Shown here: piece after piece, positions 19,956 through 46,268 of the stretch
How the letters are laid out: every line of letters starts with the position of its first letter
How positions within the stretch are numbered: position 1 is the stretch's first letter
Assembly (NCBI RefSeq): GCF_902499555.1
Contig: NZ_CABVMM010000009.1
Coordinates: 93,178-157,177, forward strand
Direction of reading: 5' to 3'
Source of the DNA: Mesonia oceanica
GTDB taxonomy: Bacteria > Bacteroidota > Bacteroidia > Flavobacteriales > Flavobacteriaceae
DNA: 64,000 nucleotides
Notes under the pieces: generated by a model
Seen by the model: only the letters and a program-made list of their open reading frames with translations
The model's database searches: none
What the model was told of the DNA's origin: nothing
Made by a program: the position numbers and the translations under genes

Positions 19956-19958
19956 ATC

Positions 19959-21745: not shown

Positions 21746-21848
21746 TTTTACCTATTTTCCTTCTAAAAAAGAGTTTTAGATGATGAATTTATTTTAAAAG
21801 GACGTTTTTCATTTATTCGATTCCTGTGAATTTTCAATCAGCGTGTTC

Positions 21849-21910: not shown

Positions 21911-21918
21911 ATAGGGAA

Positions 21919-22512: not shown

Positions 22513-22550
22513 TTTTATGAGATTTCATATTCTAATTAATGAACTCTTTA

Positions 22551-22628
22551 GTCATGCTGATTTTATTTCAGCATCTCATCATCAATTTTACAAGTTGGAT
22601 GAGAACCTGAATCAAGTTCAGGTTGACG
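22551..22628. repeat. REP/MITE-like elements in trpE-trpG intergenic region
   Basis: gtcatgctgattttatttcagcatctcatc and gatgagaacctgaatcaagttcaggttgacg. Confidence 0.6.
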
Positions 22629-22640
22629 CATAGTTTCATT

Positions 22641-29510: not shown

Positions 29511-29521
29511 AAACCATTATT

Positions 29522-30235
29522 ATGAACATATTTAGACGATTATTTAAAATAGGAGAGTCAGAAGCCAATTCTGCTATCGATAAAATGGAAGATCCCATTA
29601 AAATGACAGAACAAGGAATTAGGGATATGAAGCAAGATTTAGAAAAAAGCCTGGAAGCTTTAGCGCAAGTGAAAGCTTTAGCAATTCGTGCTAAAAACGA
29701 ACAGGAAGAACATCAGGATAAAGCTGAAGATTACCACAATAAAGCGATTTTAATTTTGAAAAAAGCTGAAAAAGGACAAATGGAAAAAGAGGAAGCAGAT
29801 CGTTTAGCTAAACAAGCTTTGGTAAAAAAAGAAGAAGCGCAGCAACACGTTAGCCGTTCTAAAGAAGAGGTGAAAAAGTTTAATGAATCGATCGCTCAAT
29901 TAGAAAATAATATTCAAAATATAAAAGCGAATATTAGCAATTGGGAGAACGAACTAAAAACGCTAAAAGCTCGGGTGAAGGTTTCTAATGCTACCAAGAA
30001 TTTGAATAAACAAATGGCAGAGATTGATAGCTCAAGTACCGTTTCTATGCTAGAGCGTATGAAAGAGAAAGTAGCCCAAGAAGAAGCTTTGGCTGAAGCT
30101 TATGGCGATATAGCCAATGCTTCTAAATCTATAGACGAAGAACTTGAAAAAGCCGCAGATACTTCAGAAGCAAAAGCCGATGACGATTTATCTAAACTTA
30201 AAGAACAATTAGGACTTAACAATAAAGACGCATAA
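29522..30235 (+). CDS. pspA: PspA/IM30 (phage shock protein A / Vipp1, ESCRT-III-like) family protein
   Basis: 237 aa all-helical coiled coil; N-terminus MNIFRRLFKIGESEANSAIDKMEDPIKMTEQGIRDMKQDLEK matches PspA/IM30. Confidence 0.8.
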   Translation: MNIFRRLFKIGESEANSAIDKMEDPIKMTEQGIRDMKQDLEKSLEALAQVKALAIRAKNEQEEHQDKAEDYHNKAILILKKAEKGQMEKEEADRLAKQALVKKEEAQQHVSRSKEEVKKFNESIAQLENNIQNIKANISNWENELKTLKARVKVSNATKNLNKQMAEIDSSSTVSMLERMKEKVAQEEALAEAYGDIANASKSIDEELEKAADTSEAKADDDLSKLKEQLGLNNKDA

Positions 30236-30237
30236 CC

Positions 30238-30939
30238 TTGAACGACTTGATCAACATCATATTTTCTGAAGTAAACCTTGTACTTACCTGTTTACTTCTT
30301 TTATTAGTCGTTTATTGGATATTAACGATGGTTAGCGGAATTGACTTTGACCTGGATGTTGATGTGGATATTGATGTAGACGTAGATGCCGATGCCGGGA
30401 TCGAAGGTGGGAATATGGATTTTCAAGACGTCTCGAATGCCGAAGTAGATAAAGATACGGTTGTTGGTAAACGACGTCAGCCCCTAAAATGGTGGCAAGT
30501 ATTTTTAATTTATTTCAATTTCGTAGGCTTGCCCTTTATGTTCACTTTTACCTGTTGGGTTTTTGTCTGGTGGTTTATTACTGTATTTACCACAAGCCTT
30601 ACACATAGTTACGACTCCAGTTTCGGATTTTTAATTATGATTTTAGCCTTTATTCCGGCGCTTATTATTACTAAGGTGATCACGACACCATTCAAGAATT
30701 TTTTCAAAAATCTGAATAAAGATGGAGATAAGGCAGTCGATTATATCGGGAGGCGTGGCGTTATGCTTTCAACAGTTTCCGAAGAAAAAATGGGAAATGC
30801 AGAAGTCGTCATCGATGGTAATTCATACAATATTTACGTGAAGTCGCTAGACGGTTCGACCATAGCTTATCATCAAGAAATTTTAATCATCAATAAGTCG
30901 AAAGACAACAATTATTTTTTAGTACAAATCTATAACTAA
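30238..30939 (+). CDS. NfeD/YqiJ-like inner-membrane protein (partner of flotillin)
   Basis: 233 aa; N-terminal TM, acidic DV-repeat (DLDVDVDIDVDVDADAG), 3 more TMs, C-terminal OB-like soluble region; located immediately upstream of an SPFH/flotillin gene as in E. coli yqiJK. Confidence 0.5.
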   Translation: MNDLINIIFSEVNLVLTCLLLLLVVYWILTMVSGIDFDLDVDVDIDVDVDADAGIEGGNMDFQDVSNAEVDKDTVVGKRRQPLKWWQVFLIYFNFVGLPFMFTFTCWVFVWWFITVFTTSLTHSYDSSFGFLIMILAFIPALIITKVITTPFKNFFKNLNKDGDKAVDYIGRRGVMLSTVSEEKMGNAEVVIDGNSYNIYVKSLDGSTIAYHQEILIINKSKDNNYFLVQIYN

Positions 30940-30955
30940 CTTAACTTAAATTATT

Positions 30956-33046: not shown

Positions 33047-33055
33047 ACTATTATT

Positions 33056-33086
33056 AACCTACAAGGTTTTACAAACCTTGTAGGTT
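33056..33086 (+). terminator. Perfect 14-bp palindrome AACCTACAAGGTTT-tac-AAACCTTGTAGGTT after flotillin gene
   Basis: Direct reading; shares CCTACAAGG core with hairpin at 38306-38347. Confidence 0.45.
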
Positions 33087-33184
33087 TGATCATAGATTTA
33101 GGATTGTCATCTGCTGTCAGTTTGAGACTTTCAGCGAAGCTCAATACAGGCTTAGTCAAGAACTATATAGCACCTAAAATTGAG

Positions 33185-33286
33185 CGTTACCCTGAACTTG
33201 TTTTAGGGGCTCATTCAGATGATTTCAAAATGAAGATGTGATGCTGAGTCAAGCTTGCCTGCCGGGTGGTCAGGCTCAGCATGACG
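33185..33286. repeat. REP/MITE-like elements (cgttaccctgaacttgttttaggggctcattcagatgatttc; gatgtgatgctgagtcaagcttgcctgccgggtggtcaggctcagcatgacg)
   Basis: Same word family as the trp-operon repeats. Confidence 0.6.
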
Positions 33287-33358
33287 TTAATTTTAACCAC
33301 AATCATTTCTTTTTAAAATTCAAAAAGAATTAATTAACCGCTTGTTCAAAAATTACTT

Positions 33359-36300
33359 ATGCAAGAAGAACAACAAGAACAAAACAATCAGACCTTAGAT
33401 GGTGGTACCTATGAGATTATAAAGAGCCGATTGCAAAAGCAGAAGCAAGAGCTTCAGCAGCGTTTGCAACAACTTAACGAAAGCAGAAAAGAAGTTTTCG
33501 GTTCTTTAGAAACCAAACTCATTGCCAATAATCGCATCAATACCGAGAATAATTGTATTGCTAGAGATATTGTTTCTATCGATAAGCTTTGCATCTTTGG
33601 ATACAATGTTCATTTTGGTTTACGTACCGAAATTACGCTAGATGATGTATTTAGTATTTACGAATATAAAGATCAGCAGTTTGAACCGGTTTCTTTAGCG
33701 CTTATTGAAGATAGTACTTTTCAGACCGATTTTACCAACCTTTACAAATATTACAGAAATACCATTTTTTCCAAGTTTGCCATCATCGGTAATTACTTAC
33801 ATATGGTTTTTCAGCTGAGTGATAGCGTCACCGATATAAAAACCTTCAAGTGGTTGATCAATGATGGCAAGCTAAGCTATATTGACAATCGAAGTGAACA
33901 CGAATATAAATTTCCGCAGCAGCACGAGTTCAATTGGCAACAAGCCGGAAGAGATGAACAGCGTCACGGGGAACATTCACATATTTCTATTTTAGATAAG
34001 GTTTTTGTAGAAACTATTGGTGGCGATCTCACGATAAAAATTGAAGACAACACTCACGATGGGAAAGGGATCTATAACGAACCGGTTGAATACCAAGATC
34101 AAACCTTGGATGACGGTCAGTTTAGATTTGCCAATTTAGGAAACCTCATTGTGTTAGAGATTAAACCTTTTCAGGAAGAGGCACGTTATTTTGTTTACAA
34201 CCATAAACTACAAGAGGTTCAAAAAATAGATAGCATAAAAGATGCTGCAGTGTTGCTACCCGATGAACAAGGCATCATTTTTCCGAATGGTTACTATTTG
34301 CAAACTGGGGAATATCAAATTTTTGATAGTGATACCCGCAATTTAAAATTTCAAAAGAGAATTGCTTCACCTAACGGGGAAGATTACCTTTTTGTGTTTT
34401 ACGCGCAAGATCGCGGGATGTATGTGTTAATGTCTTACAACGTGATTGAGCAAACGGTACAAACGCCAATTATTTGTAATGGTTATACCGTTCAGCCCAA
34501 TGGTGAGTTATGCTATTTTAAAGGTGAAGAGGAGCAAACCAAACACCATATGGTACAAATTTGGCAAACCCCATTTTTAAAAGGAGATATCATGCCTTCG
34601 CAACATCAAGATACGATGTTGTATAAGATAGGGAATAAGGATATTGTTCGCGCGATGGCAGAGGCCCAAGAGCTCATTAATTTATTAAGCAAAGAAGATA
34701 ATTATAGCGGACTTTATGATGATGTAGCCAAACTTTCTAAAGATATTTTAGATACTTATTATTGGCTGTCTGAAGAAGAAACCCAGCAGTTGAACCTTCC
34801 GTTATCAGAAATTAATAAAGCAGCCAATGCTGCTATTGATGAGTTTGAAAAAGTAGTTCAGCTTAAGCGGAATGCCAAGCAAGAAACAGAGAAATTTACC
34901 AAGAAAGCAGAAGAGGTTTTTTCAAAAGTAAAAAGCACTTCCTTTAAATCGATTGAAGATTTTGTAAAGCTTTTAAACCAAATGCGAACCTTACGTGGGG
35001 AAGCGATTGGTCTATATGAAATCAGGTATGTTGATGAAACCCTGATCAAATCGATAGAAGAAGAAATTGCTGAATTTACCGAAAAGATTTCTCAACGATG
35101 CGTTCAGTTTTTGTTAGATGAAAAAGCTTTGGCTCCGTATCATGAGAAGGTCGAAGAAAAAAAGATAGCGCTCGATAAAATTGAAAAAGTTATCGAAGCG
35201 AAAAATCTGGAAGAAGAAGTCAACCAAATTGCACAAGACTTAGAAATGCTTATCGAGATTGTTTCGAATCTTGATATTGAAGATACTTCGCACTCTACCA
35301 AGATCATCGATAATATTTCGTTGATTTTCGCTACGCTGAATCAATTAAAAGCGGCGATTAAAAATAAGCGGAAAAGTCTAGGGAGCAAAGAAGCTAAAGC
35401 CGATTTTGCAGCCCAATTAAAATTGATTGATCAGAGCATTATCAATTATTTGGATATTGCTGACACGACCGAGAAAACCGAAGATTTTCAAACTAAAATT
35501 TCAATTCAGTTAGAAGAGTTAGAAGGAAAGTTTGCCGATTTTGAAGAGTTTATCAGCCAAATCATTGAAAAGCGGGAGGAAGTTTACAATGCCTTTGAAG
35601 CGCGGAAAAATGCTATTACCGAAAAGCGAAACAAGCGAAGCTTAGCTTTAGAAAATGCCGCCGATCGCATTCTAAAAGGTGTGGATAAGCGTGCGTTAAA
35701 TTTAGGTTCTGCTACCGAGATCAATGGGTATTTTGCTTCCGATCTAATGGTGAATAAACTTCGGGATATTATTCAGCAATTAAAAGATTTGGACAATTCC
35801 GGGCGAGCAGAAGAGCTAGAAACCAAGCTAAAAGTCGCTCGGGAAGATGCCTTACGTAAGCTAAAAGATAAGCTAGAATTATACGAAGATGGCGATAACG
35901 TCATCAAGTTTGGGAAGCACAAATTTGGCGTGAATAAGCAAACGCTTGATTTAACAATTGTTTATCGTAATCATCAACTTCAATACCATTTAACGGGAAC
36001 CGATTTTTATGAAGAAGTGACCAATCCCATCTTATTAAATTCAAGAAGCCTTTGGGATCAAGAATATATTTCTGAAAATGAACAGGTGTATCGAAGTGCC
36101 TATTTGGCTTATAAATTATTCAGCAGTCTTCCTTTTTCAAAGCTAGCAAATGCCAATTCAGAAGAACTATTAAAAACTGTTCAAGAAGAAAGTAGTAGCA
36201 ATTATGCCGAAGGTTATGTAAAAGGAGTTCACGACAGAGATGCGGCTGATATTTTAGAAGTCTTGGTACGTAAACATCAAGAACTGGGTTTACTTCGCTA

Positions 36301-38227
36301 TTCGCCTAAAACCAGGGCTAAAGCTCAGTTTTTTTGGCATAGTTTACCAGAAGAACTTCAACAGAAATTTAATGAAGTTTTAAAATCTTCCGGAGAAGTT
36401 TTGAGCTTTTTTCCTGATACGAAAGAATACGATTTTTTAATTCAGCAATTAGAAAGTGCTATTTTTCAAGTGGCAGAAAACTCGGTCTTACTTTCTACGT
36501 CAAATAGCAAAGCGATGGCCAATTACTTGTTTGAAGAATTGCAGGGCGACGATCAGTTTCAAATAAGTGGAGATGCTTTGAAGATCAAAGAAGGTTTCTT
36601 GAAGACGCTTCAGGAAAAGCAAGCCGATTTAAAATTTAAGAACAGCTATGAAAAATTAGACGAGCTTGAAGCTAAAATTCAGCTAATTCGGCAATGGGTA
36701 AATTCTTTCCTAAGAACATCTTCTGCTAATTATGAGGAAGTCTATGTAGATGAGGTAGTGGCTATCATCTTGTTTAGCGATGATTCTGTTGAGAAAGTTA
36801 AGCATATTTCGGCAAGGGAAACCATTCAAGATTTAAAAGGCGATCACCCGACTTTAAAAGAAGGGGAGTTTCAATTTAACTATCATGAGTTTATTGCTGC
36901 TTTAGCCGCATATAATGAAGAAATTGTACCGGCTTACCAAGCGTTTAAAAAAGCAAAACAAGAAGTTACTGAAAGTTTAAAAGAAGATTTAAAACTGGAA
37001 GAATTGAAACCAAGGGTGTTGACTTCTTTTGTGAGAAACAAGCTCATCAACGAAGTGTATTTACCGCTTTTTGGAGATAATTTATCGAAGCAGTTAGGAA
37101 CTGTGGGCGATTACAAACGCACCGACAGAATGGGAATGTTGCTGCTCATTTCGCCACCGGGTTACGGAAAAACCACTCTAATGGAATATATTGCCAATCG
37201 GTTAGGATTGGTATTTATGAAAATCAATGGTCCTGCGATAGGACACGAAGTCACTTCGGTAGATCCGGCGGCAGCCAACAACTCGGCAGCGCGAGAAGAA
37301 CTAAAGCGACTGAATTTGGCTTTTGAAATGGGCAATAATGTCATGTTGTACTTAGATGATATTCAGCATTGCCATCCTGAATTTTTACAGAAATTTATTT
37401 CGCTCTCTGATGGAACCCGAAAAATAGAAGGGGTTTATAAAGAGAAATCAAAAACCTACGATTTACGCGGAAAGAAGTTTTGTGTGATTATGGCAGGAAA
37501 CCCATATACCGAAAGTGGAGAAAAGTTTAGGATTCCCGATATGTTGGCCAACCGAGCCGATATTTACAACTTAGGAGATATTATTGGTGATACCGCACAT
37601 TTATTCAAATTAAGTTTAATCGAAAATGCACTCACCTCTAACCCGACTTTACAGCAATTAAGCAGTAAACATTTTGATGATATTTATCGACTGATTGATC
37701 GTGTGGAAAATCAAAATCCTGAAATTCAGCTGGAAGGTAATCATACGCCACAAGAAGTGCAGGACTATGTTTCGGTTTTAGAGAAAGTAATTACGATTAG
37801 AGATACTGTGTTGAGGGTGAACGAAACCTACATCAAATCGGCTGCGATGGAAGATGAATATAGAACAGAACCGGCATTTAAATTACAAGGTTCTTATCGT
37901 GATATGAATAAACTGATCGGTAAAGTCGTGCCGATTATGAATAAAGAAGAACTTGCTACTTTATTACTGTCTCATTATGAAAGTGAATCGCAAACGCTCA
38001 CCACTTCTGCAGAAGCGAATTTATTAAAGTTTAAAGAGCTTCAACAAAATTTGACTGCCCAAGAAAATGAACGTTGGAATGTGATTAAAGAAACCTTTCT
38101 GAAAAACAATAAACTGAAAGGCTTAGGCAATAAAAATGAAATGGCTCAGGTATTGAACCAAATGGTGGCCTTCACAGATAATCTAGAAGGCATTAAACGA
38201 GTTTTGGAGCAAGGTTTTATGAAATAG
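33359..38227 (+). CDS. Giant (1622 aa) multidomain protein with C-terminal AAA+ ATPase domain of the MoxR/dynein-like (AAA_5) type; function unknown
   Basis: Walker A LLISPPGYGKTTLMEYIA (~aa 1265), Walker B VMLYLDDIQH, sensor-1 CVIMAGNP; Q/E-rich N-terminal coiled coil, beta-rich region aa ~60-420, long central helical/coiled-coil region. Confidence 0.7.
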   Translation: MQEEQQEQNNQTLDGGTYEIIKSRLQKQKQELQQRLQQLNESRKEVFGSLETKLIANNRINTENNCIARDIVSIDKLCIFGYNVHFGLRTEITLDDVFSIYEYKDQQFEPVSLALIEDSTFQTDFTNLYKYYRNTIFSKFAIIGNYLHMVFQLSDSVTDIKTFKWLINDGKLSYIDNRSEHEYKFPQQHEFNWQQAGRDEQRHGEHSHISILDKVFVETIGGDLTIKIEDNTHDGKGIYNEPVEYQDQTLDDGQFRFANLGNLIVLEIKPFQEEARYFVYNHKLQEVQKIDSIKDAAVLLPDEQGIIFPNGYYLQTGEYQIFDSDTRNLKFQKRIASPNGEDYLFVFYAQDRGMYVLMSYNVIEQTVQTPIICNGYTVQPNGELCYFKGEEEQTKHHMVQIWQTPFLKGDIMPSQHQDTMLYKIGNKDIVRAMAEAQELINLLSKEDNYSGLYDDVAKLSKDILDTYYWLSEEETQQLNLPLSEINKAANAAIDEFEKVVQLKRNAKQETEKFTKKAEEVFSKVKSTSFKSIEDFVKLLNQMRTLRGEAIGLYEIRYVDETLIKSIEEEIAEFTEKISQRCVQFLLDEKALAPYHEKVEEKKIALDKIEKVIEAKNLEEEVNQIAQDLEMLIEIVSNLDIEDTSHSTKIIDNISLIFATLNQLKAAIKNKRKSLGSKEAKADFAAQLKLIDQSIINYLDIADTTEKTEDFQTKISIQLEELEGKFADFEEFISQIIEKREEVYNAFEARKNAITEKRNKRSLALENAADRILKGVDKRALNLGSATEINGYFASDLMVNKLRDIIQQLKDLDNSGRAEELETKLKVAREDALRKLKDKLELYEDGDNVIKFGKHKFGVNKQTLDLTIVYRNHQLQYHLTGTDFYEEVTNPILLNSRSLWDQEYISENEQVYRSAYLAYKLFSSLPFSKLANANSEELLKTVQEESSSNYAEGYVKGVHDRDAADILEVLVRKHQELGLLRYSPKTRAKAQFFWHSLPEELQQKFNEVLKSSGEVLSFFPDTKEYDFLIQQLESAIFQVAENSVLLSTSNSKAMANYLFEELQGDDQFQISGDALKIKEGFLKTLQEKQADLKFKNSYEKLDELEAKIQLIRQWVNSFLRTSSANYEEVYVDEVVAIILFSDDSVEKVKHISARETIQDLKGDHPTLKEGEFQFNYHEFIAALAAYNEEIVPAYQAFKKAKQEVTESLKEDLKLEELKPRVLTSFVRNKLINEVYLPLFGDNLSKQLGTVGDYKRTDRMGMLLLISPPGYGKTTLMEYIANRLGLVFMKINGPAIGHEVTSVDPAAANNSAAREELKRLNLAFEMGNNVMLYLDDIQHCHPEFLQKFISLSDGTRKIEGVYKEKSKTYDLRGKKFCVIMAGNPYTESGEKFRIPDMLANRADIYNLGDIIGDTAHLFKLSLIENALTSNPTLQQLSSKHFDDIYRLIDRVENQNPEIQLEGNHTPQEVQDYVSVLEKVITIRDTVLRVNETYIKSAAMEDEYRTEPAFKLQGSYRDMNKLIGKVVPIMNKEELATLLLSHYESESQTLTTSAEANLLKFKELQQNLTAQENERWNVIKETFLKNNKLKGLGNKNEMAQVLNQMVAFTDNLEGIKRVLEQGFMK

Positions 38228-38305
38228 TTCGCTTATAAATAAACCAGAATTGAATAGAGAAATAGCTCAAATCCTGAATGGAAATTTGGTATGAGCTTTA
38301 CTGTT

Positions 38306-38347
38306 AAAAACCTACAAGGTCTTTTTTGTTTGACTTTGTAGGTTTTT
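38306..38347 (+). terminator. Rho-independent terminator (aaaaacctacaa...ttgtaggttttt + T-run) after the 1622-aa gene
   Basis: 12-bp stem, followed by ttttttt. Confidence 0.5.
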
Positions 38348-38743
38348 TTTATCCTATGACTATAAAAGCTTTTATTAAAGTTTAACGTTGAATGAAATTA
38401 GGGGATAAAATTTCCGGGGAAATTCAATAATTAGTCTAAAGTACCTAGAAAACTTTTGTATGAAATACAGTTTACTATTTCTATGATCGGTATTTTATCT
38501 TTAAAAACTAATGAATATCCAAGGTAGTTGTAGGTAAATAAGAATTTTATTTTCAATAAAAAAATATTAAAAAATCATTAAATTTATGTTTTCTTTACAT
38601 TATCTTTATTTTAAGGTGCATGATATAAGATTATTAAATTTTAACCTATGGATATTGTGATTAACGTAATAATGATATTAGGAGGTATTTCCTTTTTAGG
38701 GATTGTCTTGGATGAATTAATGAAGACTTTATAGGTCTTAACA

Positions 38744-38971
38744 TCAATCTTCCCAACCACAAAGGCTTCTTTTTAGTTTTTTAGCGTCTTCTAAGCTTAT
38801 CTTTTTAATACACGCTTTACAGGCATTTAGCCCTCTGCAATCATTTGTATAATGGTATTTCTTAGCGGTTTGACTATCGCAGATAAATACCGATTTTTCT
38901 GAACTTACCAGCGCTAAGTTGATACTGGAAAATGTAATGAAAACAATAAAAAAGAGTAGTTTCTGTTTCAT
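38744..38971 (-). CDS. Small secreted Cys-rich protein (75 aa, 6 Cys)
   Basis: Signal peptide MKQKLLFFIVFITFSSINLALVSS; CDSQ...CRGLNACKAC...C pattern. Confidence 0.4.
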   Translation of the reverse strand: MKQKLLFFIVFITFSSINLALVSSEKSVFICDSQTAKKYHYTNDCRGLNACKACIKKISLEDAKKLKRSLCGWED

Positions 38972-39254
38972 AATAATTGGTTGTAATAATAAGATTCTAT
39001 TAAAAAATTGAGTTTGTGATTTATAAAATCAGCGCTCAACTAATTTACAAAATATACTATAACTTAAACCGTTGCCTATTAAAAAATAAAATTCATCATC
39101 ATTTTCAAGGTATTTCTGGAACAAACGCTAGGGTAAAAGATTTTCGCAATTCTATAGTTGCCTATAAAATTATTGGTATTACAGGGCATCGAAATAGTAA
39201 GAGCTTTAAATATATTATCAAGTAAATTTTTTGGCTACAATTAGTACAGTAAAT

Positions 39255-39372
39255 AGAACTTTTAGAAAATATAATTATATGTAAACACATATAATATTTA
39301 GTTTTGTATTTTAATTATATGGAATCACATATAATTTTGTATATTTAACTGTATTTATACGTTAAAACATAT
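39255..39372 (+). promoter_or_regulatory. Three palindromic operator-like repeats TATATGT-N4/5-ACATATA(AT) upstream of hipB-like gene
   Basis: atatgtaaacacatataat; ttatatggaatcacatataa; aaaacatataATG (overlapping start codon). Confidence 0.5.
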
Positions 39373-39373
39373 A

Positions 39374-39595
39374 ATGGAATCATTAGCATCATTTGTAAAA
39401 GCACGAAGAAAAGAAGTAAACTTAACCCAAGAAGAGTTTGCAAATCGAGCAGGGGTAGCATTAACCGTTATCCGTAAGATAGAACAAAACCAAACAAATT
39501 TGAACCTGGATAAAGTAAATCAGGTGTTAAAAATGTTTGGTCATCAACTAGTACCGGTTAGTTTAAAAGATATAGAAGTTAATGAGGCAAGCTAA
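39374..39595 (+). CDS. hipB: HipB-like XRE-family HTH protein (73 aa)
   Basis: HTH_XRE motif LTQEEFANRAGVALTVIRKIEQNQTNLNLDKVNQVLKMFG; first gene of 3-gene operon with 14-nt overlap to next ORF. Confidence 0.65.
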   Translation: MESLASFVKARRKEVNLTQEEFANRAGVALTVIRKIEQNQTNLNLDKVNQVLKMFGHQLVPVSLKDIEVNEAS

Positions 39596-39914
39596 GATTT
39601 TTTACGATACTGCTTATTGTGGTAAACTAACAGAGACCAATGATGGAGAGTTCGTATTTAAATATGATGAAAATTACGTGCGTGACTATCCCAATCAATT
39701 TATCACTTTTACCATGCCTGTTCGTAAAAAAGAATATAAAGAAAAACGCCTGTTTGCCTTTTTTGAAGGTTTAATTCCTGAAGGTTGGCTATTGGATATT
39801 GCTTCCAAAAATTGGAAAGTTAATAGAAACGACCGAATGGGATTATTGTTGACTTGTTGTAAAGACTGTATAGGAGCAGTAAGTGTTCACCCCATAGCAA
39901 CTGATGATGAGTAA
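39582..39914 (+). CDS. hipS: HipS-like protein = stand-alone HipA N-terminal (couple_hipA) domain (110 aa), putative antitoxin
   Basis: FFEGLIPEGWLLDIASKNWKVNRNDRMGLLLTCCKDCIGAVSVHP matches HipA N-domain consensus (LLPEG...GxDCxGA). Confidence 0.65.
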   Translation: MRQAKIFYDTAYCGKLTETNDGEFVFKYDENYVRDYPNQFITFTMPVRKKEYKEKRLFAFFEGLIPEGWLLDIASKNWKVNRNDRMGLLLTCCKDCIGAVSVHPIATDDE

Positions 39915-40848
39915 GTGTTTATACTGTTATAAAGAGGTTTCGGGAGAAAGTGACTTTCATCAAGCTTGTAGTTTAAGGTTTTTTGGAACAAAAACTCCTC
40001 CTAAAATTGCTCATTCTATTCAAGAAATGAAGGAATTAGCTAAACAGGTTGTAGAACGTAGCATAGCTGTTCCTGGGGTGCAACCAAAAATATCGATGTC
40101 TATATTTGATAATAATAGCGATCAGAGGCTTACCGTGGTAGGGGCATTAGGAGGAAATTATATTTTTAAACCACCTTCAGAACATTTTCCTGAAATGCCT
40201 GCCAATGAACATGTCACGATGAAAATGGCTGAATTATTTAATATTTCCGTTGTCCCACATTCATTGATCAGGCTTTCTTCCGGTGAATTATCTTATATCA
40301 CCAAACGAATAGATCGTAAAGAAGATGGAAGTAAAATTCATATGATCGATATGTTTCAGGTCGTAGAAGCATTTGATAAATACCGAGGATCGATGGAACG
40401 TATAGGGAAGGCGGTTCTTGAATATGCAGAAAATACGCTATTAGATATTTTGCGTCTTTTTGAATTAACTGTTTTTAGTTATCTAACGGGAAATAACGAT
40501 ATGCACTTAAAAAACTTCTCCCTAATAAAAGCAGATTATGGATGGACGCTTTCTCCAGCTTATGATCTGCTAAATATTTCTATTGTAAATCCGGACGATC
40601 AGGAAGAACTGGCTTTAACACTTGCCGGGAAAAAGAAAAAAATAACTAGAAAATTATTAGTCGATTTTGGTCTTGGTTTAGAATTAACCCCAAAACAAAT
40701 AAACGGGGTTTTTAAAAGATTTCAAAAGTCTAAAAATAAAGCTATTGACTTAATTCATAATTCGTTTTTAAGTGAAGAAATGCAGAAGTCTTATATAAAA
40801 TTATTAGAAAATAGGTATGAAATTCTCTTGAAAGAAAATGAGTTGTAA
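39904..40848 (+). CDS. hipT: HipT-like Ser/Thr kinase = HipA C-terminal catalytic domain (314 aa), putative toxin
   Basis: VPGVQPKISMSI (HipA 'GaQpKfsl' motif), catalytic loop GNNDMHLKNFSL, SPAYDLLN motif; N-terminal CxxC...H..C extension. Confidence 0.7.
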   Translation: MMSKCLYCYKEVSGESDFHQACSLRFFGTKTPPKIAHSIQEMKELAKQVVERSIAVPGVQPKISMSIFDNNSDQRLTVVGALGGNYIFKPPSEHFPEMPANEHVTMKMAELFNISVVPHSLIRLSSGELSYITKRIDRKEDGSKIHMIDMFQVVEAFDKYRGSMERIGKAVLEYAENTLLDILRLFELTVFSYLTGNNDMHLKNFSLIKADYGWTLSPAYDLLNISIVNPDDQEELALTLAGKKKKITRKLLVDFGLGLELTPKQINGVFKRFQKSKNKAIDLIHNSFLSEEMQKSYIKLLENRYEILLKENEL

Positions 40849-40974
40849 ATCAAAATAATTTATGTTGAATAGTTCGGAGAAATTCTAGTAAGCAAATTTT
40901 ATATTGTATACGGAAGTTTTAACTAATATTTTATAGAATCTAAAGATTCTTTTTTTTGATTCTTAACGAGATGA

Positions 40975-41000
40975 AACAGGTAAGTAATCTACCTGTTTCT
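40975..41000 (+). terminator. Terminator hairpin AAACAGGTA-agtaatc-TACCTGTTT + T-rich tail after hipT
   Basis: Perfect 9-bp stem directly read; separates hipBST from the CRISPR array. Confidence 0.5.
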
Positions 41001-41038: not shown

Positions 41039-41866
41039 GTTGTGAATACCTTTCCAACTAAAGGCTGTTACAACGGTTGCAAAACCATTGAAAAGGAGTT
41101 GCCTGTTGTGAATACCTTTCCAACTAAAGGCTGTTACAACATGGTAGGGAAACATAACAAAGACGAAAGTGTTGTGAATACCTTTCCAACTAAAGGCTGT
41201 TACAACATTCAATCAAACAATTGTATTATAAAATTAGTTGTGAATACCTTTCCAACTAAAGGCTGTTACAACCAACAATGTATGGGCGATGAATGCCGCC
41301 TTGTTGTGAATACCTTTCCAACTAAAGGCTGTTACAACCAGATCGCTAGACAAAAGATTAAAAGACGGGTTGTGAATACCTTTCCAACTAAAGGCTGTTA
41401 CAACATGGCGTTCAAGACAATTGGAGACAAATAGGTTGTGAATACCTTTCAAACTAAAGGCTGTTACAACTTGCGGGATATGGTTATGATGAGATCGCTC
41501 GTTGTGAATACCTTTCAAACTAAAGGCTGTTACAACATTACCAGATGTTTTAACCCCTGTTACTATGTTGTGAATACCTTTCCAACTAAAGGCTGTTACA
41601 ACTTGTGACGATTGTATAACAAAAGAATTCTAGTTGTGAATACCTTTCCAACTAAAGGCTGTTACAACCAATACACTCCTCACAAGGCTTTTCGGTATGT
41701 TGTGAATACCTTTCCAACTAAAGGCTGTTACAACAAAAAATTTGGTATCCCTATTGAATACGATGTTGTGAATACCTTTCCAACTAAAGGCTGTTACAAC
41801 CATCGATCTTTCTTCACAAACAAGCGACTTGTTGTGAATACCTTTCCAACTAAAGGCTGTTACAAC
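41039..41866 (-). CRISPR. Type VI-B CRISPR array: 13 repeats x 36 nt (GTTGTGAATACCTTTCCAACTAAAGGCTGTTACAAC on +; transcribed form likely GTTGTAACAGCCTTTAGTTGGAAAGGTATTCACAAC), 12 spacers x 30 nt
   Basis: Repeats at 41039,41105,41171,41237,41303,41369,41435,41501,41567,41633,41699,41765,41831 (each +35); repeats 7 and 8 carry the same C->A change (TTTCAAACT); 36/30 nt geometry is diagnostic of Cas13b arrays; minus-strand orientation inferred from similarity of the reverse-complement to the published B. zoohelcum DR. Confidence 0.95.
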
Positions 41867-41961
41867 CTATTTTATATAAGGTATTGTTAATTAATGTGTT
41901 TATTGAAAAACCTTCAGATAAAATGATGTCAAAGAGCTTTACAAAGCTAAAATCATAATGC

Positions 41962-44900
41962 TTATTTAAATTCTAGTATGGTTTGATTTGTATATTCTAG
42001 GAATAATTCATTAAAATTAATAGACACTGCATTAGGCACATTTTTATAAATTTCATCGTAATAAATTTTTCTTGGTAATTGATTATGTGAAAACTTATTA
42101 CGTATCATTACTAATAAAAAAGCTTTTTCCATAATTTTTGATTGTTTTTTCAACTCATCTATAGGAGTAGTATCAAAATCTTTTTTGGAAATTAGCCATT
42201 TTGCGTCTTCTTCAGAAACTAATTCTAAGCTTTTAAGGAATGTGGTCAAATATTTATTAAAATTAGGATGTTCATTAGTATCAATTAATGTGGGTAATTT
42301 CTTGATCATATATTTTTCAAATTCCTGAATACTTTTTAGTAAATAATCTCTTCGTATTACCTCATAAGAATTTGCTTTTAGTTCTAAAACTTCTTCTAAC
42401 TCTGTTTTATTCCAAATCTTCTGAGGTTTATATTCAAAAAGGGTTTGTACTTTTTGACTAGCAATAAATTTTTTGAATTTTCCAAGTTCTTTTAGTTTAA
42501 CTTGGGGTTCGTAGATATTTTTACTGCAATAAGGTACCGTTAATGTCCATGCAGAAGTAGATTTAATGATGTTTGCTGAATTATCACCAGTAGTTTTATG
42601 GCTTTGGATTAAGGCAGCCTCGATTTCTGCTTTACGTTCTGTTTGTGTTTTATAAATATCACTGAGATTTAAATCTAAATGTTCAGCATCCTCAGGTAGG
42701 TATAATTCATTAAAAATAATACTGGCCATTTTAGCTAGTAATACATCTTGTTGTTTTACTTTGTTGATTTTAGATCCTTGAACTCTAATAAATCGCTTTT
42801 CTGTTTTTTCCTGTTCACCTGATAAATAAGCCGATTTATAATCTCGATCCCAACTATAGAATTTTTGATAATCAGTATGTTGGTTCCAGGCAACATACCA
42901 GTCGGCAAAACATTCCGGATTTTCCTGTATACTTTTACCTTTGATATAAGTAGGTTTGTGATCAAAAACACCTTTTGGAAACTGCATGGGCTTAACCAAT
43001 AGTTTTTCTACCTGTTCTTCTATAGTATCAATAACATACAGTCGCTTATGAAATAAATTCCATAGATGTTGTTGTTTTATGAATTTATCTAAAATCTTTT
43101 TGTTTGATCTAATTCCATTCAACTGATCTTTGAATCTTTGGAAGGTTTCTTTTCTGTTGTTTAAATAAGAGGTATAGAATGAAATAAAATCTCGCTTATC
43201 AAATGATCTTCTAATCCCATTGTTCCATAGATAAGCTTCGTTCTTAAAATCCCAAACCTCTTCGAGCAAGCTTAAGGGCTCTTTAGGTTGAATATCATAG
43301 AAAGCCAAAGATTTTTGCAATTGGCTATGATGCTGTCCTCGCCAATTTTGCCTACTTCCTTTTGGCATAAAACGCTTTAAATCATTAGCTAGCCAGGTAA
43401 CTTGTAGCCCTATTTCTTTATTGGTAAAAACATATTTTCGCTTTTGTTTGGGATCGTTTCGTTCTTTAATATGTAGAGCTATGGTTTGTAGTTTGTCATT
43501 GGTAACCGCTATTTCTTTTTCTATTGCGAGTTGAAGTTTGTCCAGATTTACTTCCTTTTTTTGTTTAGCTTTTAGAAGGTTTTTGGTAATCTGTCCTTTA
43601 GAAATATCGTCACCAGCTTTATAGTTGGTCAGTACATTATAGCGTTCTGCAATCTTTTGAGCTATTATTATTTCAATTTCTTCTGGAGTCTTTTTAGTTA
43701 AAACTAGGTGTAATAACGCAGGTAACTCATTTAAAGACAGCATTGCAACTGGAGCCAGTTTTTCAGGTTTACCCAAATCCTGTAAAATAGCATCCGGTTT
43801 TATTTTATTATCGGTTCTAACTTTATATTCTTCTGGATGATCCGATTTGTAACTAGAGTTTCGTTTTTTTAAACGACCTGCCACAATTTTCACCTCTTTA
43901 GGAAAAAAGTGTTCATTTAAATTGAGATGAATAGGAATGTTGTTTCCTACGAAATTGTAAGATGGATTAGGATATAGTTGTAGTCCTATGCTTTGGTGAT
44001 TTTCTTTTTCTTCAAAATATTTTTGTTTTAATTGAGCAGCCTCGCTAAGTTTTGCGAATGCTTTAATTTTTTCTTTTACGATTCTCTCAGTTACATATTT
44101 TGTGCCTTCAATAGGCTTTTCCCTTTTATCGTGTACATAATTTCCTAAATGAAGTTGAAACCGTAGGGTTGGAAAATCTACAAATTCATCTAAAAATCGT
44201 AATGCAAAATATGCGAATTTATTTTCATAGCGCTTACGGATTACAGGATGAATAACGGTGGCTTTATCTAAACTTTCTGAATTTTCTTCTTTAAGATATT
44301 CATTCATATCTTCTAGAAATTCATTCTTTAATTCTTCAGGAAGTACCTGGTAAAGCTCATCTGGGACTTTGCTTAATTCATCTACAATTTGCGCAAGTAG
44401 TGTGTCTTTTGTGAACGTAGTCGTAAATCTGTTTTTTAAACCTTTAAAACCTAAATAGCCAAACACCCAGTGGGTAGCCATATATTTTAAGCTATTATTT
44501 TTCTTATTTATAGGATTTTCTGGGTTAACAATCAGTTTTGCTTTAAAACCTTTTACCCGGCTTCTTAGATCTTCACTTTGCTTTTTGGTAAGGAAAAGTC
44601 CAAGAAGAAAAATAATCCCACTTTCAGATATGGTTACACCATTTTCAGTATCGATATCTTCAGTAGGGACAGCACTATAATATTTGCTTATAGTGTTTTC
44701 TTTAGGAAGAAGATGGGAAAAACTGTCATTCAAAATAGCGTTGGTGATAGCCTCTTTATCATTTAAATTAACTTTTTTTCCTTCTCTTTTTAACTTTTTA
44801 AGGTCTTCTAATTTTAATTTTTCTAATTGTGCTAATTCTTCAATCAACCCTTTTTTTAGCAATTGTTTGGAAGCATCAGTTTTCATTCGATGTTTTTTAA

Positions 44901-45366
44901 CATCATTAGCTACTGCTAAAAAAAGATCGTCTAATAATTTATAAGTTTCAGGAAATACAGGGATAGGTTTGTGGAAATGATGCGTGTAGAAATTACGATA
45001 ATCTCTGATTAAATTTTTGAGTACCTTGAGAGAATTCTTAAAGTAATTTCTTTGTTCAGAAATTAATTGGTTTTTAGGTACATTTTCGAACCTTTTATGG
45101 GATGTAGGTAAGTATAAATATCGAATAACAGGTAAATTTTTTTGTAGAAATTCGACACCTAATTGATATTCTGCTATAGCCTTGTCTTGAGTGAAAAAAT
45201 CTAATATACAAGACTTTGGTTTCATCCCAAACTTTTCTTTAAAAGCCTTGGAAAGATCGTTAATGTTATTTTGAGCTAAGTTAAAATATCCTCCAAAATA
45301 ATGTTTATCTTCTATACTGGCATAATTATACTCTAAGCGTTTTGCTAAATAATCGGTTTCATTCAT
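41962..45366 (-). CDS. cas13b: Cas13b (C2c6) RNA-guided RNase, type VI-B effector, 1134 aa
   Basis: HEPN1 RNFYTH at aa 124-129 (nt 44997..44980) and HEPN2 RNKFSH at aa 1089-1094 (nt 42102..42085); long stretches near-identical to B. zoohelcum Cas13b (e.g. HPVIRKRYENKFAYFALRFLDEFVDFPTLRFQLHLGNYVHD; GIIFLLGLFLTKKQ); adjacent 36/30 array. Confidence 0.95.
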   Translation of the reverse strand: MNETDYLAKRLEYNYASIEDKHYFGGYFNLAQNNINDLSKAFKEKFGMKPKSCILDFFTQDKAIAEYQLGVEFLQKNLPVIRYLYLPTSHKRFENVPKNQLISEQRNYFKNSLKVLKNLIRDYRNFYTHHFHKPIPVFPETYKLLDDLFLAVANDVKKHRMKTDASKQLLKKGLIEELAQLEKLKLEDLKKLKREGKKVNLNDKEAITNAILNDSFSHLLPKENTISKYYSAVPTEDIDTENGVTISESGIIFLLGLFLTKKQSEDLRSRVKGFKAKLIVNPENPINKKNNSLKYMATHWVFGYLGFKGLKNRFTTTFTKDTLLAQIVDELSKVPDELYQVLPEELKNEFLEDMNEYLKEENSESLDKATVIHPVIRKRYENKFAYFALRFLDEFVDFPTLRFQLHLGNYVHDKREKPIEGTKYVTERIVKEKIKAFAKLSEAAQLKQKYFEEKENHQSIGLQLYPNPSYNFVGNNIPIHLNLNEHFFPKEVKIVAGRLKKRNSSYKSDHPEEYKVRTDNKIKPDAILQDLGKPEKLAPVAMLSLNELPALLHLVLTKKTPEEIEIIIAQKIAERYNVLTNYKAGDDISKGQITKNLLKAKQKKEVNLDKLQLAIEKEIAVTNDKLQTIALHIKERNDPKQKRKYVFTNKEIGLQVTWLANDLKRFMPKGSRQNWRGQHHSQLQKSLAFYDIQPKEPLSLLEEVWDFKNEAYLWNNGIRRSFDKRDFISFYTSYLNNRKETFQRFKDQLNGIRSNKKILDKFIKQQHLWNLFHKRLYVIDTIEEQVEKLLVKPMQFPKGVFDHKPTYIKGKSIQENPECFADWYVAWNQHTDYQKFYSWDRDYKSAYLSGEQEKTEKRFIRVQGSKINKVKQQDVLLAKMASIIFNELYLPEDAEHLDLNLSDIYKTQTERKAEIEAALIQSHKTTGDNSANIIKSTSAWTLTVPYCSKNIYEPQVKLKELGKFKKFIASQKVQTLFEYKPQKIWNKTELEEVLELKANSYEVIRRDYLLKSIQEFEKYMIKKLPTLIDTNEHPNFNKYLTTFLKSLELVSEEDAKWLISKKDFDTTPIDELKKQSKIMEKAFLLVMIRNKFSHNQLPRKIYYDEIYKNVPNAVSINFNELFLEYTNQTILEFK

Positions 45367-45865: not shown

Positions 45866-45881
45866 TGTAGAGTGGAGTCGG

Positions 45882-46268
45882 GGAGATTCGAACTCCCGTC
45901 CAAACAAGCAATTCAATAGCTTTCTACACGCTTATTTTTCACTTCAATTTTCGAGAAAGATCTGGCAGAAAACCTCCCAATCTTTCCTTAACCTTTAAGA
46001 TTTCAATAGCCCTTAAAGGTATCGAGCTACCTAGATTTACTTTATCGGTGCCTCTAGTTGGAACGCCATAAATCAAGGCTTTCCAGAGACATCTTAGCCC
46101 TATGCCTTGCATAGGTTAAGGTAATCTTACTTTAGTTCAGATTACGCAGCTAAGGCGTAATTATTTTCGCCGTTTAAAAAAGTTTGAAATATGAGATTTA
46201 CGAGCTGTATCCCAGCGCTCGACGTGCTTACTACTCAATTAGACTCGCTGTCAAAACCAGTCGACCCC
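45882..46268 (-). ncRNA. ssrA: tmRNA (SsrA), tag peptide (G)ENNYALAA
   Basis: 5' GGGGTCGACTGGTTTTGACAG...; internal ORF GGC GAA AAT AAT TAC GCC TTA GCT GCG TAA (46172..46143) = GENNYALAA*; 3' end GGACGGGAGTTCGAATCTCCCCGACTCCAC matches canonical tmRNA T-arm/acceptor. Confidence 0.9.

What the first reader, a model, noticed from the sequence alone, without database searches (positions are those of the whole stretch)
39374..40848. Tripartite HipB-HipS-HipT toxin-antitoxin module (split HipA kinase) converging on the CRISPR array
Three overlapping ORFs: a 73-aa XRE HTH protein; a 110-aa protein that is a free-standing HipA N-terminal domain (LIPEG...CKDCIGA); and a 314-aa HipA catalytic domain (GVQPKISMS, GNNDMHLKNFS, SPAYDLLN). 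This is the architecture of the recently characterised HipBST system. In HipBST the HipA-N-like HipS is the antitoxin and the HipT kinase is known from established work to phosphorylate tryptophanyl-tRNA synthetase. Here it lies next to a cas13b locus and in a genome with a tightly attenuated trp operon. The HipT homologue has an N-terminal CxxC-x11-H-x2-C extension (MMSKCLYCYKEVSGESDFHQAC) that may be a zinc-ribbon not present in the E. coli protein. A TA module flanking a single-effector CRISPR locus could stabilise the island or cooperate with Cas13b collateral RNase activity in abortive infection.
Basis: partly seen in the sequence, partly recalled or inferred. Interest (0 to 1): 0.7.

Follow-up and report, generated by a model that had tools for sequence, protein, structure and literature searches.

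The report
Legionella-type HipBST kinase toxin-antitoxin operon
This is a genuine three-gene "split HipA" toxin-antitoxin operon of a type already described and common in Bacteroidota; it sits next to the Cas13b CRISPR locus only because both lie in a variable spot beside the tmRNA gene, and its one little-known feature is a conserved probable zinc-binding motif at the start of the kinase.

Summary
Three overlapping ORFs encode an HTH HipB (73 aa), a stand-alone HipA N-subdomain-1 protein HipS (110 aa) and a core HipA-type kinase HipT (314 aa). All three match the Legionella pneumophila HipBST proteins best, and the HipT model superposes on HipT(Lp) at TM 0.91. The catalytic motifs, the RxDR motif and the HipS Glu/Trp wedge are intact. 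Three 20-bp palindromes 40 bp apart lie upstream of hipB, at positions conserved in relatives.

- **TrpS target:** the published work on HipT(Lp) found that TrpS and GltX do not rescue its toxicity. The TrpS/trp-operon link is therefore unsupported.
- **Cas13b link:** 0 of 80 related loci carry cas13b within 10 kb. A relative has hipBST beside the same tmRNA gene without cas13b, so the CRISPR cassette is a 5-kb indel.
- **Cys/His motif:** it is real (CxxC-x10-HxxC, not x11) and as conserved as the catalytic residues (116 of 124 diverse representatives). It lies in the N-terminal mini-domain that E. coli and Legionella HipT also have, but without the ligands.
- **Gly-rich loop:** it reads AVP, so it lacks both autophosphorylation serines, as in 49 of 80 relatives.

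Verdict: an ordinary new member of a known family, with modest interest.

The parts
39275..39294 (.). Putative HipB operator O1 (TTATATGTAAACACATATAA; TTATAT-N8-ATATAA palindrome), 99 nt upstream of the hipB ATG
   Evidence: Perfect match to the consensus. A site at this same position occurs in 58 of 77 related upstream regions. Shuffled regions give 0.34 sites per region.
39315..39334 (.). Putative HipB operator O2 (TTATATGGAATCACATATAA), at -59; overlaps the predicted promoter
   Evidence: Perfect match, 40 bp from O1. The position is conserved in 60 of 77 regions.
39332..39339 (+). Candidate Bacteroidota -7 promoter element TAnnTTTG (TAATTTTG); a second near-match, TATATTTA, lies at 39340-39347
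   Evidence: Sequence read. TAnnTTTG occurs at -45 to -25 in 60 of 77 related regions. The Bacteroidota promoter consensus comes from established knowledge; the promoter assignment is an inference.
39355..39374 (.). Putative HipB operator O3 (TTATACGTTAAAACATATAA), at -19; its right half-site runs into the hipB start codon
   Evidence: One mismatch to the consensus. The position is conserved in 67 of 77 regions.
39374..39595 (+). hipB: 73-aa XRE/HTH protein, the predicted autorepressor
   Evidence: HTH_3 4e-10 and TIGR03070 couple_hipB 2e-19. The best solved relative is HipB(Lp) 8ezt. Present in 79 of 80 related loci.
39582..39914 (+). hipS: 110-aa stand-alone HipA N-subdomain 1, the predicted antitoxin. 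E67 (39780-39782) and W69 (39786-39788) correspond to E. coli HipS E63 and W65.
   Evidence: Couple_hipA 4e-24 and TIGR03071 2e-26. HipS(Lp) 2e-13 and HipS(Ec) 4e-11. E67 and W69 are invariant in 80 of 80 loci.
39904..40848 (+). hipT: 314-aa core HipA-type Ser/Thr kinase, the predicted toxin (313 aa if translation starts at 39907)
   Evidence: HipA_C 5e-43. HipT(Lp) 7vkb/8ezr 9e-48 over residues 2-306. AF2 model pLDDT 94.6. Foldseek TM 0.90-0.91 to 7wcf/7vkc.
39916..39969 (+). [quoted passage not shown]
   Evidence: The four residues are at least 90% conserved in a 105-sequence alignment with 36% mean column identity. CCHC in 80 of 80 loci. Present in 116 of 124 N-complete 50%-cluster representatives. 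In the AF2 model C5 and C8 lie in the hairpin between beta 3-4 and beta 11-12, and H19 and C22 at the start of helix 20-27, with pLDDT 91-97.
40066..40089 (+). Gly-rich (P) loop A55-V-P-G-V-Q-P-K62; it lacks Ser/Thr at both autophosphorylation positions (Lp S54/Q56; Ec S57/S59)
   Evidence: Alignment to HipT(Lp). In the 80 loci: AVP 44, SVP 22, TVP 8, AIP 5, TIP 1. In the 120 closest homologues: SVP 104, AVP 12.
40498..40515 (+). Catalytic motif D199-M-H201-L-K203-N204
   Evidence: K203 is invariant and D199, H201 and N204 are at least 90% conserved in A2. The motif aligns with GNEDMHLKN of HipT(Lp).
40564..40566 (+). Mg2+-binding Asp D221 (in SPAYDLLN)
   Evidence: At least 90% conserved in A2. 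Aligns with SPAYDLLN of HipT(Lp).
40973..40999 (+). Intrinsic-terminator-like hairpin (10-bp stem followed by a T-rich tail) ending the hipBST transcript, 40 nt before the last CRISPR repeat

Best explanation
This is a chromosomal type II toxin-antitoxin operon of the HipBST family, in the Legionella-type (HipBST-Lp) subclade that is widespread in Bacteroidota. HipT is an active HipA-fold Ser/Thr kinase that arrests growth when free (inferred from homology). HipS, the detached N-subdomain 1 of HipA, binds the kinase N-lobe and blocks it; its conserved Glu67/Trp69 probably hold the Gly-rich loop in the ejected, ATP-incompetent state (inferred from the E. coli structure). HipB is a dimeric HTH repressor that, alone or as a HipB-HipT-HipS complex, binds three evenly spaced palindromic operators covering the promoter and the start codon, and so autoregulates the operon. 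The operators are shown as conserved sequence; binding is inferred from Legionella EMSA data. The phosphorylation target is unknown and is probably not TrpS. Regulation by Gly-rich-loop autophosphorylation is unlikely in this protein, because the loop reads AVP. The N-terminal mini-domain probably binds one zinc ion through C5, C8, H19 and C22. The module is independent of the Cas13b locus. Both are cargo of the variable region next to the tmRNA gene, and the cas13b-CRISPR cassette is an indel between hipBST and ssrA.
For: Domain and family hits are. All three proteins match the L. pneumophila HipBST chains best in the PDB. The AF2 model has pLDDT 94.6 and TM 0.90-0.91 to HipT(Lp) over the whole length. 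The catalytic, Mg-binding and RxDR residues are conserved. HipS E67/W69 are invariant in 80 of 80 loci. The hipB-hipS-hipT order is kept in 80 of 80 loci, with HipB detected in 79. Three operators sit at -99, -59 and -19 with 40-bp spacing, conserved in position in about 58-67 of 77 loci, against 0.34 sites per shuffled region. Legionella HipB binds three evenly spaced operators in EMSA (PMC10653801). HipBST-Lp homologues are reported as widely distributed in the FCB group. For Cas13b independence: 0 of 80 loci carry cas13b. L088 has hipBST next to the same tmRNA/AlaDh/Exo_endo_phos genes without cas13b. DNA homology stops at the hipT stop codon and resumes at the tmRNA gene.
Against: No experiment exists on this or any Bacteroidota member: toxicity, neutralisation by HipS, DNA binding and zinc binding are all inferred. 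The lack of a Ser/Thr at the autophosphorylation position could in principle mean altered or lost activity. However, HipT(Lp) S54A stays toxic, and Ala is the commonest state among relatives. I could not read model coordinates, so the geometry of the Cys/His site was not measured.
Confidence: 0.85

Rival explanations
1. One reading: HipT phosphorylates tryptophanyl-tRNA synthetase, as E. coli O127 HipT does, and is physiologically tied to the attenuated trp operon in the same window.
For: E. coli, H. influenzae and T. auensis HipT act on TrpS (PMC6581861; summarised). A trpEGDCFBA operon is present at 16746-24035.
Against: This HipT belongs to the Legionella-type subclade (9e-48 against 2e-19 for the E. 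coli protein; TM 0.91 against 0.82-0.86). HipT(Lp) toxicity is not rescued by TrpS or GltX, and phosphoproteomics did not recover TrpS. The trp operon lies 15 kb away on the other strand, with unrelated genes between. Nothing links the two.
Confidence: 0.1
2. HipBST is functionally coupled to the type VI-B CRISPR locus, either as an accessory that cooperates with Cas13b collateral RNase activity in abortive infection, or as an addiction module selected to stabilise the cas13b island.
For: The two are adjacent and convergent, 190 bp apart. The same arrangement occurs in several marine metagenome contigs of this organism. Some relatives sit in defence islands: Gabija-like genes in Z. profunda and type I R-M/Fic in Lutibacter. 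Weak PADLOC matches point to the candidate defence system PDC-M03. HipA-family kinases have been validated in phage defence elsewhere (PMC13092281).
Against: 0 of 80 related loci carry cas13b within 10 kb. A relative with 82-83% identical HipT has hipBST at the same tmRNA-flanking site without cas13b or CRISPR. Other relatives sit among housekeeping genes or IS elements. A separate terminator ends the hipBST transcript. Generic stabilisation of a variable region by a TA module cannot be excluded, but it is not specific to Cas13b.
Confidence: 0.08
3. The module is a decayed or non-toxic remnant. Loss of the Gly-rich-loop serine (A55, P57) marks an inactive or re-purposed kinase.
For: A55 and P57 replace both known autophosphorylation sites. 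S57A in E. coli HipT and S150A in HipA abolish toxicity.
Against: All catalytic residues, HipS and HipB are intact and under strong conservation. AVP or AIP is the majority state in 80 species-level relatives (49 of 80). HipT(Lp) S54A remains toxic.
Confidence: 0.06

Closest known systems
HipBST of Legionella pneumophila (Lpg2368-2370; PDB 7VKB/7VKC/7WCF, 8EZR/8EZS/8EZT; Zhen et al. 2022, Lin et al. 2023)
   Same: Same gene order and overlapping ORFs. HipB is about 73 aa, without the long N-terminal extension of E. coli HipB. Full-length HipT homology (34-37% identity, TM 0.90-0.91), including the N-terminal mini-domain. Same catalytic, RxDR and Mg motifs. Three evenly spaced HipB operators upstream. 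The subclade is reported as widespread in the FCB group.
   Different: HipT here keeps four Cys/His ligands (C5, C8, H19, C22) that Legionella has lost (MKHCPITYEKISDQENYSQRG). The Gly-rich loop is AVP, not SVQ, so there is no S54 equivalent. HipS keeps the Trp wedge (PEGW), where Legionella has I65/M66. The operators differ: a 20-bp TTATAT-N8-ATATAA with 40-bp periodicity and O3 over the start codon, against an 18-nt repeat with 53-bp gaps.
HipBST of enteropathogenic E. coli O127:H6 (PDB 7AB3-5; Vang Nielsen 2019, Baerentsen 2023)
   Same: Tripartite architecture. HipS acts as the antitoxin with Glu63/Trp65, conserved here as E67/W69. HipB is the repressor. HipT has an N-terminal mini-domain.
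   Different: Much more distant (2e-19; about 20% structural-alignment identity). The E. coli loop is S57-I-S59 with dual autophosphorylation. The E. coli target is TrpS. The E. coli mini-domain has no Cys/His site. E. coli HipB is 107 aa.
Canonical HipBA (E. coli K-12, S. oneidensis) and unsplit HipA-like kinases of the same clade
   Same: Same kinase fold (TM 0.65-0.71). HipS corresponds to N-subdomain 1. HipB uses palindromic operators with an N8 spacer. Unsplit Couple_hipA+HipA_C relatives (about 440-460 aa) carry the same CxxC..HxxC motif between the two domains.
   Different: HipA is a single polypeptide neutralised by HipB. In the window's system the N-subdomain is a separate gene and serves as the antitoxin.

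Membership tests
HipBST tripartite TA (split HipA) | Three co-directional, overlapping or adjacent genes in the order hipB-hipS-hipT | tested here: met
   overlaps of 14 and 11 nt. The same order is found in 80 of 80 related loci.
HipBST tripartite TA (split HipA) | HipS is a stand-alone protein of about 100 aa homologous to HipA N-subdomain 1 | tested here: met
   Couple_hipA 4e-24 covering positions 2-98 of the 99-position profile. HipS(Lp) 2e-13, HipS(Ec) 4e-11, HipA N-terminus 5e-4.
HipBST tripartite TA (split HipA) | HipT is a core HipA kinase that lacks N-subdomain 1 and has the Gly-rich loop, catalytic D-x-H-x-K-N motif and Mg-binding Asp | tested here: met
   HipA_C 5e-43. G58/Q60/K62, D199/H201/K203/N204 and D221 are conserved. 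Fold TM 0.91 to HipT(Lp).
HipBST tripartite TA (split HipA) | HipB is an HTH protein that autoregulates through upstream operators | tested here: met
   HTH_3 and couple_hipB hits. Three conserved palindromes at -99, -59 and -19. Actual binding is not testable here.
HipBST tripartite TA (split HipA) | [quoted passage not shown] | tested here: not met
   The loop is A55-V-P57. The same lack is found in 49 of 80 relatives. This feature is regulatory rather than definitional; other Hip families also lack it (PMC8262856).
HipBST tripartite TA (split HipA) | HipT is toxic and is neutralised by HipS, not by HipB | not testable with these tools
   Needs expression experiments. Only the HipS Glu/Trp interface residues could be checked; they are conserved in 80 of 80 loci.
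E. coli-type HipT (TrpS kinase) | Phosphorylates and inhibits TrpS | not testable with these tools
   The closest characterised relative, HipT(Lp), is not rescued by TrpS. The E. coli protein is far more distant.
HipBST-Lp subclade (Lin et al. 2023) | All three proteins are closer to the Legionella system than to the E. coli system; taxonomic distribution in the FCB group | tested here: met
   Relatives are Flavobacteriaceae and other Bacteroidota or Chlorobiota.
Type VI-B CRISPR accessory gene (csx27/csx28-like linkage) | Conserved co-occurrence with cas13b across genomes | tested here: not met
   0 of 80 loci carry cas13b within 10 kb. A syntenic relative lacks cas13b.
Structural zinc finger (treble-clef-like CCHC) | Four conserved Cys/His ligands arranged as a CxxC knuckle in a beta-hairpin, plus a second pair at the N-terminus of a helix | tested here: met
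   Conservation is shown. AF2 secondary structure is beta 3-4, beta 11-12 and helix 20-27, with pLDDT 91-97. No Pfam model covers the region; only sub-threshold RING-like/C2HC hits appear in two homologues.
Structural zinc finger (treble-clef-like CCHC) | Actual metal binding with tetrahedral ligand geometry | not testable with these tools
   Model coordinates cannot be read with these tools. Metal analysis of purified protein is needed.
   The second ligand pair (H19, C22) is predicted at a helix N-terminus, not in a hairpin. This argues against a classical ribbon, but it rests on a model only.

The most novel reading that the evidence does not exclude
[quoted passage not shown] About 94% of this clade retains it, including unsplit HipA-like kinases. 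It has escaped notice because both experimentally studied HipT proteins (E. coli, Legionella) have lost the ligands. Because it leads directly into the Gly-rich loop and sits at the HipS side of the N-lobe, it could act as a switch. Oxidation, zinc loss or a phage cue might control HipS release or ATP-loop positioning, replacing the serine autophosphorylation control that this protein lacks. Alternatively it could be the element that recognises the still-unknown, non-TrpS substrate.
Probability: 0.15. Interest if true: 0.55.

Novelty: new member of a known kind. Interest (0 to 1): 0.3.

Why it matters
As a HipBST operon it adds little. The family, its split-kinase logic and its abundance in Bacteroidota are published.

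Two points could matter to toxin-antitoxin specialists.
- Most kinases of the Legionella-type clade carry a strictly conserved CxxC...HxxC site in the mini-domain whose role is unknown. The two model proteins are atypical in lacking it.
- More than half of the Bacteroidota members lack any phosphorylatable residue at the Gly-rich loop. The autophosphorylation-based regulation worked out in E. coli therefore cannot be general.

Both points are directly testable. They bear on the open question of what this clade phosphorylates and how it is switched on.

For CRISPR biology the result is negative. The Cas13b adjacency is a hotspot coincidence, not an accessory relationship.

Tried and rejected
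1. The first AlphaFold run used 49 close homologues (69-86% identity). It gave an unusable model (pLDDT 54.7). It was repeated with a diverse 105-sequence alignment, which gave pLDDT 94.6.

2. I looked for a duplicated tmRNA 3'-end (att-like repeat) that would delimit an integrated island. Only the tmRNA gene itself matched, allowing up to 3 mismatches, so no island boundary could be defined.

3. The GC profile shows only mildly lower GC (0.27-0.33) across 38-45.5 kb, against 0.36-0.39 in the flanks. This is suggestive of variable DNA but not decisive.

4. PADLOC gave only partial, weak hits: PDC-M03A 2.6e-12 on HipT residues 85-221, and PDC-M03B 1.6e-4 on HipS. This is not enough to place the module in a defence system.

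5. Literature searches for HipA/HipT together with zinc or cysteine found nothing relevant. The four core HipBST papers do not mention zinc or a cysteine motif. This covers only the held library, so prior description elsewhere is not excluded.

6. A Pfam scan of the isolated mini-domain found no family.

Six contexts were inspected by hand instead.

8. The 130-aa 'ORF' at 41042-41434 and its neighbours are translations of CRISPR repeats, not genes.
Full report
**1. Observation**

The three ORFs exist exactly as described.
- hipB: 39374-39595, 73 aa.
- hipS: 39582-39914, 110 aa.
- hipT: 39904-40848, 314 aa.

All are on the + strand, with overlaps of 14 and 11 nt. Most homologues begin MSKCLYC, so the second ATG (39907) may be the true hipT start (the NCBI call of 313 aa appears).

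- HipB: HTH_3 4e-10, and TIGR03070 'couple_hipB' 2e-19 (69.3 bits, just under the 71.65 cut-off).
- HipS: Couple_hipA 4e-24 and TIGR03071 2e-26.
- HipT: HipA_C 5e-43.

Downstream on the opposite strand lie a 13-repeat, 36-nt CRISPR array (41039-41866) and cas13b (41962-45366; NF038190 2e-258). A hairpin terminator at 40973-40999 closes the hipBST transcript.

**2. Which HipBST**

Against all PDB sequences, each protein matches the Legionella pneumophila system best.

| Protein | Best match, L. pneumophila | E. coli O127 match |
|---|---|---|
| HipT | HipT(Lp) 7VKB/8EZR, 9e-48 over residues 2-306 | 2e-19 |
| HipS | HipS(Lp), 2e-13 | 4e-11 |
| HipB | HipB(Lp) 8EZT, top hit | not among the hits |

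An AlphaFold2 model built on a diverse alignment has mean pLDDT 94.6.
- HipT(Lp): TM 0.90-0.91 over all 314 columns.
- E. coli HipT: TM 0.82-0.86.
- HipA: TM 0.65-0.71.

Lin et al. 2023 (PMC10653801) defined the HipBST-Lp subclade. They reported it as rare in Gammaproteobacteria outside Legionella but widely distributed in the FCB superphylum.

The window's protein fits that description. It has thousands of homologues, the closest in Zunongwangia, Salegentibacter, Gelidibacter and other Flavobacteriaceae. It also matches 5135 cluster representatives at E up to 1e-3. In 80 species-level genome loci the hipB-hipS-hipT order is kept in all. HipB was detected in 79, and the missing one lies at a contig end.

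**3. Is it functional**

In a 105-sequence alignment with only 36% mean column identity, the following are invariant or at least 90% conserved.
- G58, Q60 and K62 of the Gly-rich loop.
- R135, D137 and R138 (the RxDR motif).
- D199, H201, K203 and N204 (the catalytic motif).
- D221 (Mg2+ binding).

HipS carries PEGW. E67 and W69 correspond to E. coli HipS E63 and W65, the residues that insert beside the ejected Gly-rich loop (PMC10627512). They are invariant in 80 of 80 relatives. Legionella HipS has Ile/Met at the Trp position. So the kinase resembles the Legionella protein, while the antitoxin keeps the E. coli-type wedge.

**4. Regulation**

Upstream of hipB are three copies of the 20-bp palindrome TTATAT-N8-ATATAA.

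| Operator | Coordinates | Position relative to the hipB ATG |
|---|---|---|
| O1 | 39275-39294 | -99 |
| O2 | 39315-39334 | -59 |
| O3 | 39355-39374 | -19 |

They are spaced exactly 40 bp apart, and the last runs into the ATG. Across 77 upstream regions, including the window:
- sites occur at exactly these three positions in 58, 60 and 67 regions;
- a spacing of 40 bp is seen 122 times;
- shuffled sequence gives 0.34 sites per region;
- a Bacteroidota -7 element (TAnnTTTG) lies between O2 and O3 in 60 of 77 regions.

This parallels Legionella, where HipB binds three evenly spaced operators and HipT and HipS join the DNA complex. Autorepression by HipB is therefore well supported by sequence conservation, though it was not shown directly.

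**5. What differs from the characterised systems**

*(a) The Gly-rich loop.* The loop reads A55-V-P57-G. Legionella has S54-V-Q and E. coli has S57-I-S59, so neither known autophosphorylation position is phosphorylatable here.

This is not decay.
- Among the 80 species-level relatives the states are AVP 44, SVP 22, TVP 8, AIP 5 and TIP 1.
- Among 124 diverse representatives the first position is S or T in 71 and another residue in 53.
- HipT(Lp) S54A remains toxic.

The published 48-protein survey listed (S/T)-psi-P and psi-psi-T groups, but not a group lacking Ser/Thr at both positions.

*(b) The N-terminal Cys/His motif.* It is real: C5-x2-C8-x10-H19-x2-C22.

The four residues are as conserved as the catalytic ones.
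- At least 90% conserved in the diverse alignment.
- CCHC in 80 of 80 loci.
- CxxC...HxxC in 116 of 124 N-complete representatives.
- Present in 13 of 16 unsplit forms of about 440-460 aa. All five such forms scanned proved to be Couple_hipA plus HipA_C, and there the motif lies between the two domains.

The model places C5 and C8 in the turn of a beta-hairpin (beta 3-4 and beta 11-12), and H19 and C22 at the start of helix 20-27, with pLDDT 91-97. That is the treble-clef pattern rather than a zinc ribbon. I could not measure ligand distances.

[quoted passage not shown] In those proteins the ligands are replaced: MKHCPITYEKISDQENYSQRG in Legionella, and ...NERDEQRGYSTQGLKRL in E. coli.

No Pfam family covers the segment. 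Two homologues give sub-threshold RING-like/C2HC hits. That may explain why Lpg2370 was once thought to resemble the RING ligase FANCL.

None of the four core HipBST papers mentions zinc or a cysteine motif.

**6. Target**

For HipT(Lp), neither TrpS nor GltX rescued toxicity. An ASKA library screen and phosphoproteomics gave no validated target.

The trpEGDCFBA operon at 16746-24035 is 15 kb away and has no detectable connection. The target here is unknown. An aminoacyl-tRNA synthetase or another translation factor remains the best guess by family analogy, which is inference only.

**7. Relation to Cas13b**

None of the 80 related loci has a Cas13b homologue within 10 kb.

The window comes from a marine Flavobacteriaceae-like MAG (GCA_002696985.1). 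The same arrangement appears in Tara metagenome contigs.

A tmRNA gene lies at 45872-46268, immediately beyond cas13b. In genome CP051246.1 (HipT 82-83% identical), hipBST lies beside the orthologous tmRNA, AlaDh_PNT and Exo_endo_phos genes. Only a small PLCC-like ORF and an IS66 fragment lie between.

DNA homology runs from window 39143 to 40833, which is the promoter, operators and hipBST. It stops at the hipT stop codon and resumes at 45818, the tmRNA gene. The terminator, CRISPR array and cas13b therefore form a cassette of about 5 kb, inserted or lost between hipBST and ssrA.

Other relatives sit in varied contexts:
- next to Gabija-like genes (Z. profunda);
- next to a type I R-M/Fic cluster (Lutibacter);
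- next to a tRNA-Arg gene and IS fragments (Algibacter);
- among housekeeping genes (Olleya).

This is the usual behaviour of a mobile TA module in variable regions. It fits a generic role in island stabilisation or abortive infection, but gives no evidence of a specific partnership with Cas13b. No csx27/csx28-like accessory ORF is present around cas13b.

**8. Verdict**

The finding is a correct identification of a HipBST operon, but an over-reading of its context. It is a new member of the published Legionella-type HipBST subclade, and typical of hundreds of Bacteroidota relatives.

The points worth a specialist's attention are clade-wide rather than specific to this window:
- the strictly conserved, apparently undescribed CCHC site in the mini-domain;
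- the frequent absence of any autophosphorylation residue;
- the conserved three-operator promoter.

Interest is 0.3.

Noticed in passing
window 45872-46268 (- strand): A tmRNA (ssrA) gene with tag GENNYALAA lies directly next to cas13b. The region between it and hipBST differs between relatives: cas13b plus CRISPR here, a PLCC-like ORF plus an IS66 fragment in CP051246.1. The ssrA flank therefore behaves as an insertion hotspot. No att-like duplicate of the tmRNA 3' end was found in the window.
   Followed up: yes
window 41039-45366 (- strand): The type VI-B locus consists of cas13b plus a 13-repeat array (36-nt repeats, 30-nt spacers). Two repeats carry a C-to-A variant. No csx27/csx28-like accessory ORF is nearby. 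The reverse complement of the repeat resembles published Cas13b repeats (from memory), so the array is probably transcribed on the - strand, downstream of cas13b.
   Followed up: partly
window 29115-38227 (+ strand): An apparent operon lies just upstream of hipBST. It encodes a CesT_Tir_1-like protein, a PspA/IM30 protein, an unknown 233-aa protein, a 696-aa SPFH/Band 7 protein and a 1622-aa DUF3686/DUF7902/AAA+ ATPase. It looks like a membrane-stress or possibly defence-type cluster. PADLOC gave only a marginal mad8 hit for the ATPase.
   Followed up: partly
window 28086-28847 (- strand): A LexA/CI-like protein (HTH_3 plus Peptidase_S24, 253 aa) is encoded divergently from the PspA cluster.
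   Followed up: no
window 38744-38971 (- strand) and 38228-39140: A 75-aa ORF has a signal-peptide-like N-terminus and five Cys residues, with no family hit. It sits in a 1.1-kb low-GC (0.27-0.29) stretch between the ATPase gene and hipBST. DNA homology to the relative's hipBST locus starts only at 39143.
   Followed up: partly
protein P0261 (1387 aa): A relative fuses the zinc-motif HipT kinase to a NACHT NTPase and an FGE-sulfatase-like domain. This is an NLR-like architecture with a Hip kinase as the probable effector, which hints at immune use of this kinase clade. Proteins P0258 (624 aa) and P0234 (574 aa) also carry unannotated C-terminal extensions.
   Followed up: partly
locus L019 (uncultured Saccharicrinis sp., OY782088.1) 7552-10933: hipB-hipS and hipT are separated by about 1.9 kb, instead of overlapping. 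This suggests an insertion that splits the operon.
   Followed up: no
proteins P0018 and P0019; locus L088 holds only the P0018 copy: The hit table gives the same longest-contig length (4,734,907 bases, the length of CP051246.1) for two distinct close HipT paralogues (83% and 82% identical to the window's protein). This suggests that the genome carries two hipBST copies. Only P0018 was located, in L088; P0019 was not looked up.
   Followed up: no
window 16746-24035 (- strand): A complete trpE-G-D-C-F-B-A operon is present. The TrpF-like ORF is unusually long (302 aa), and its PRAI domain matches in two stretches.
   Followed up: no
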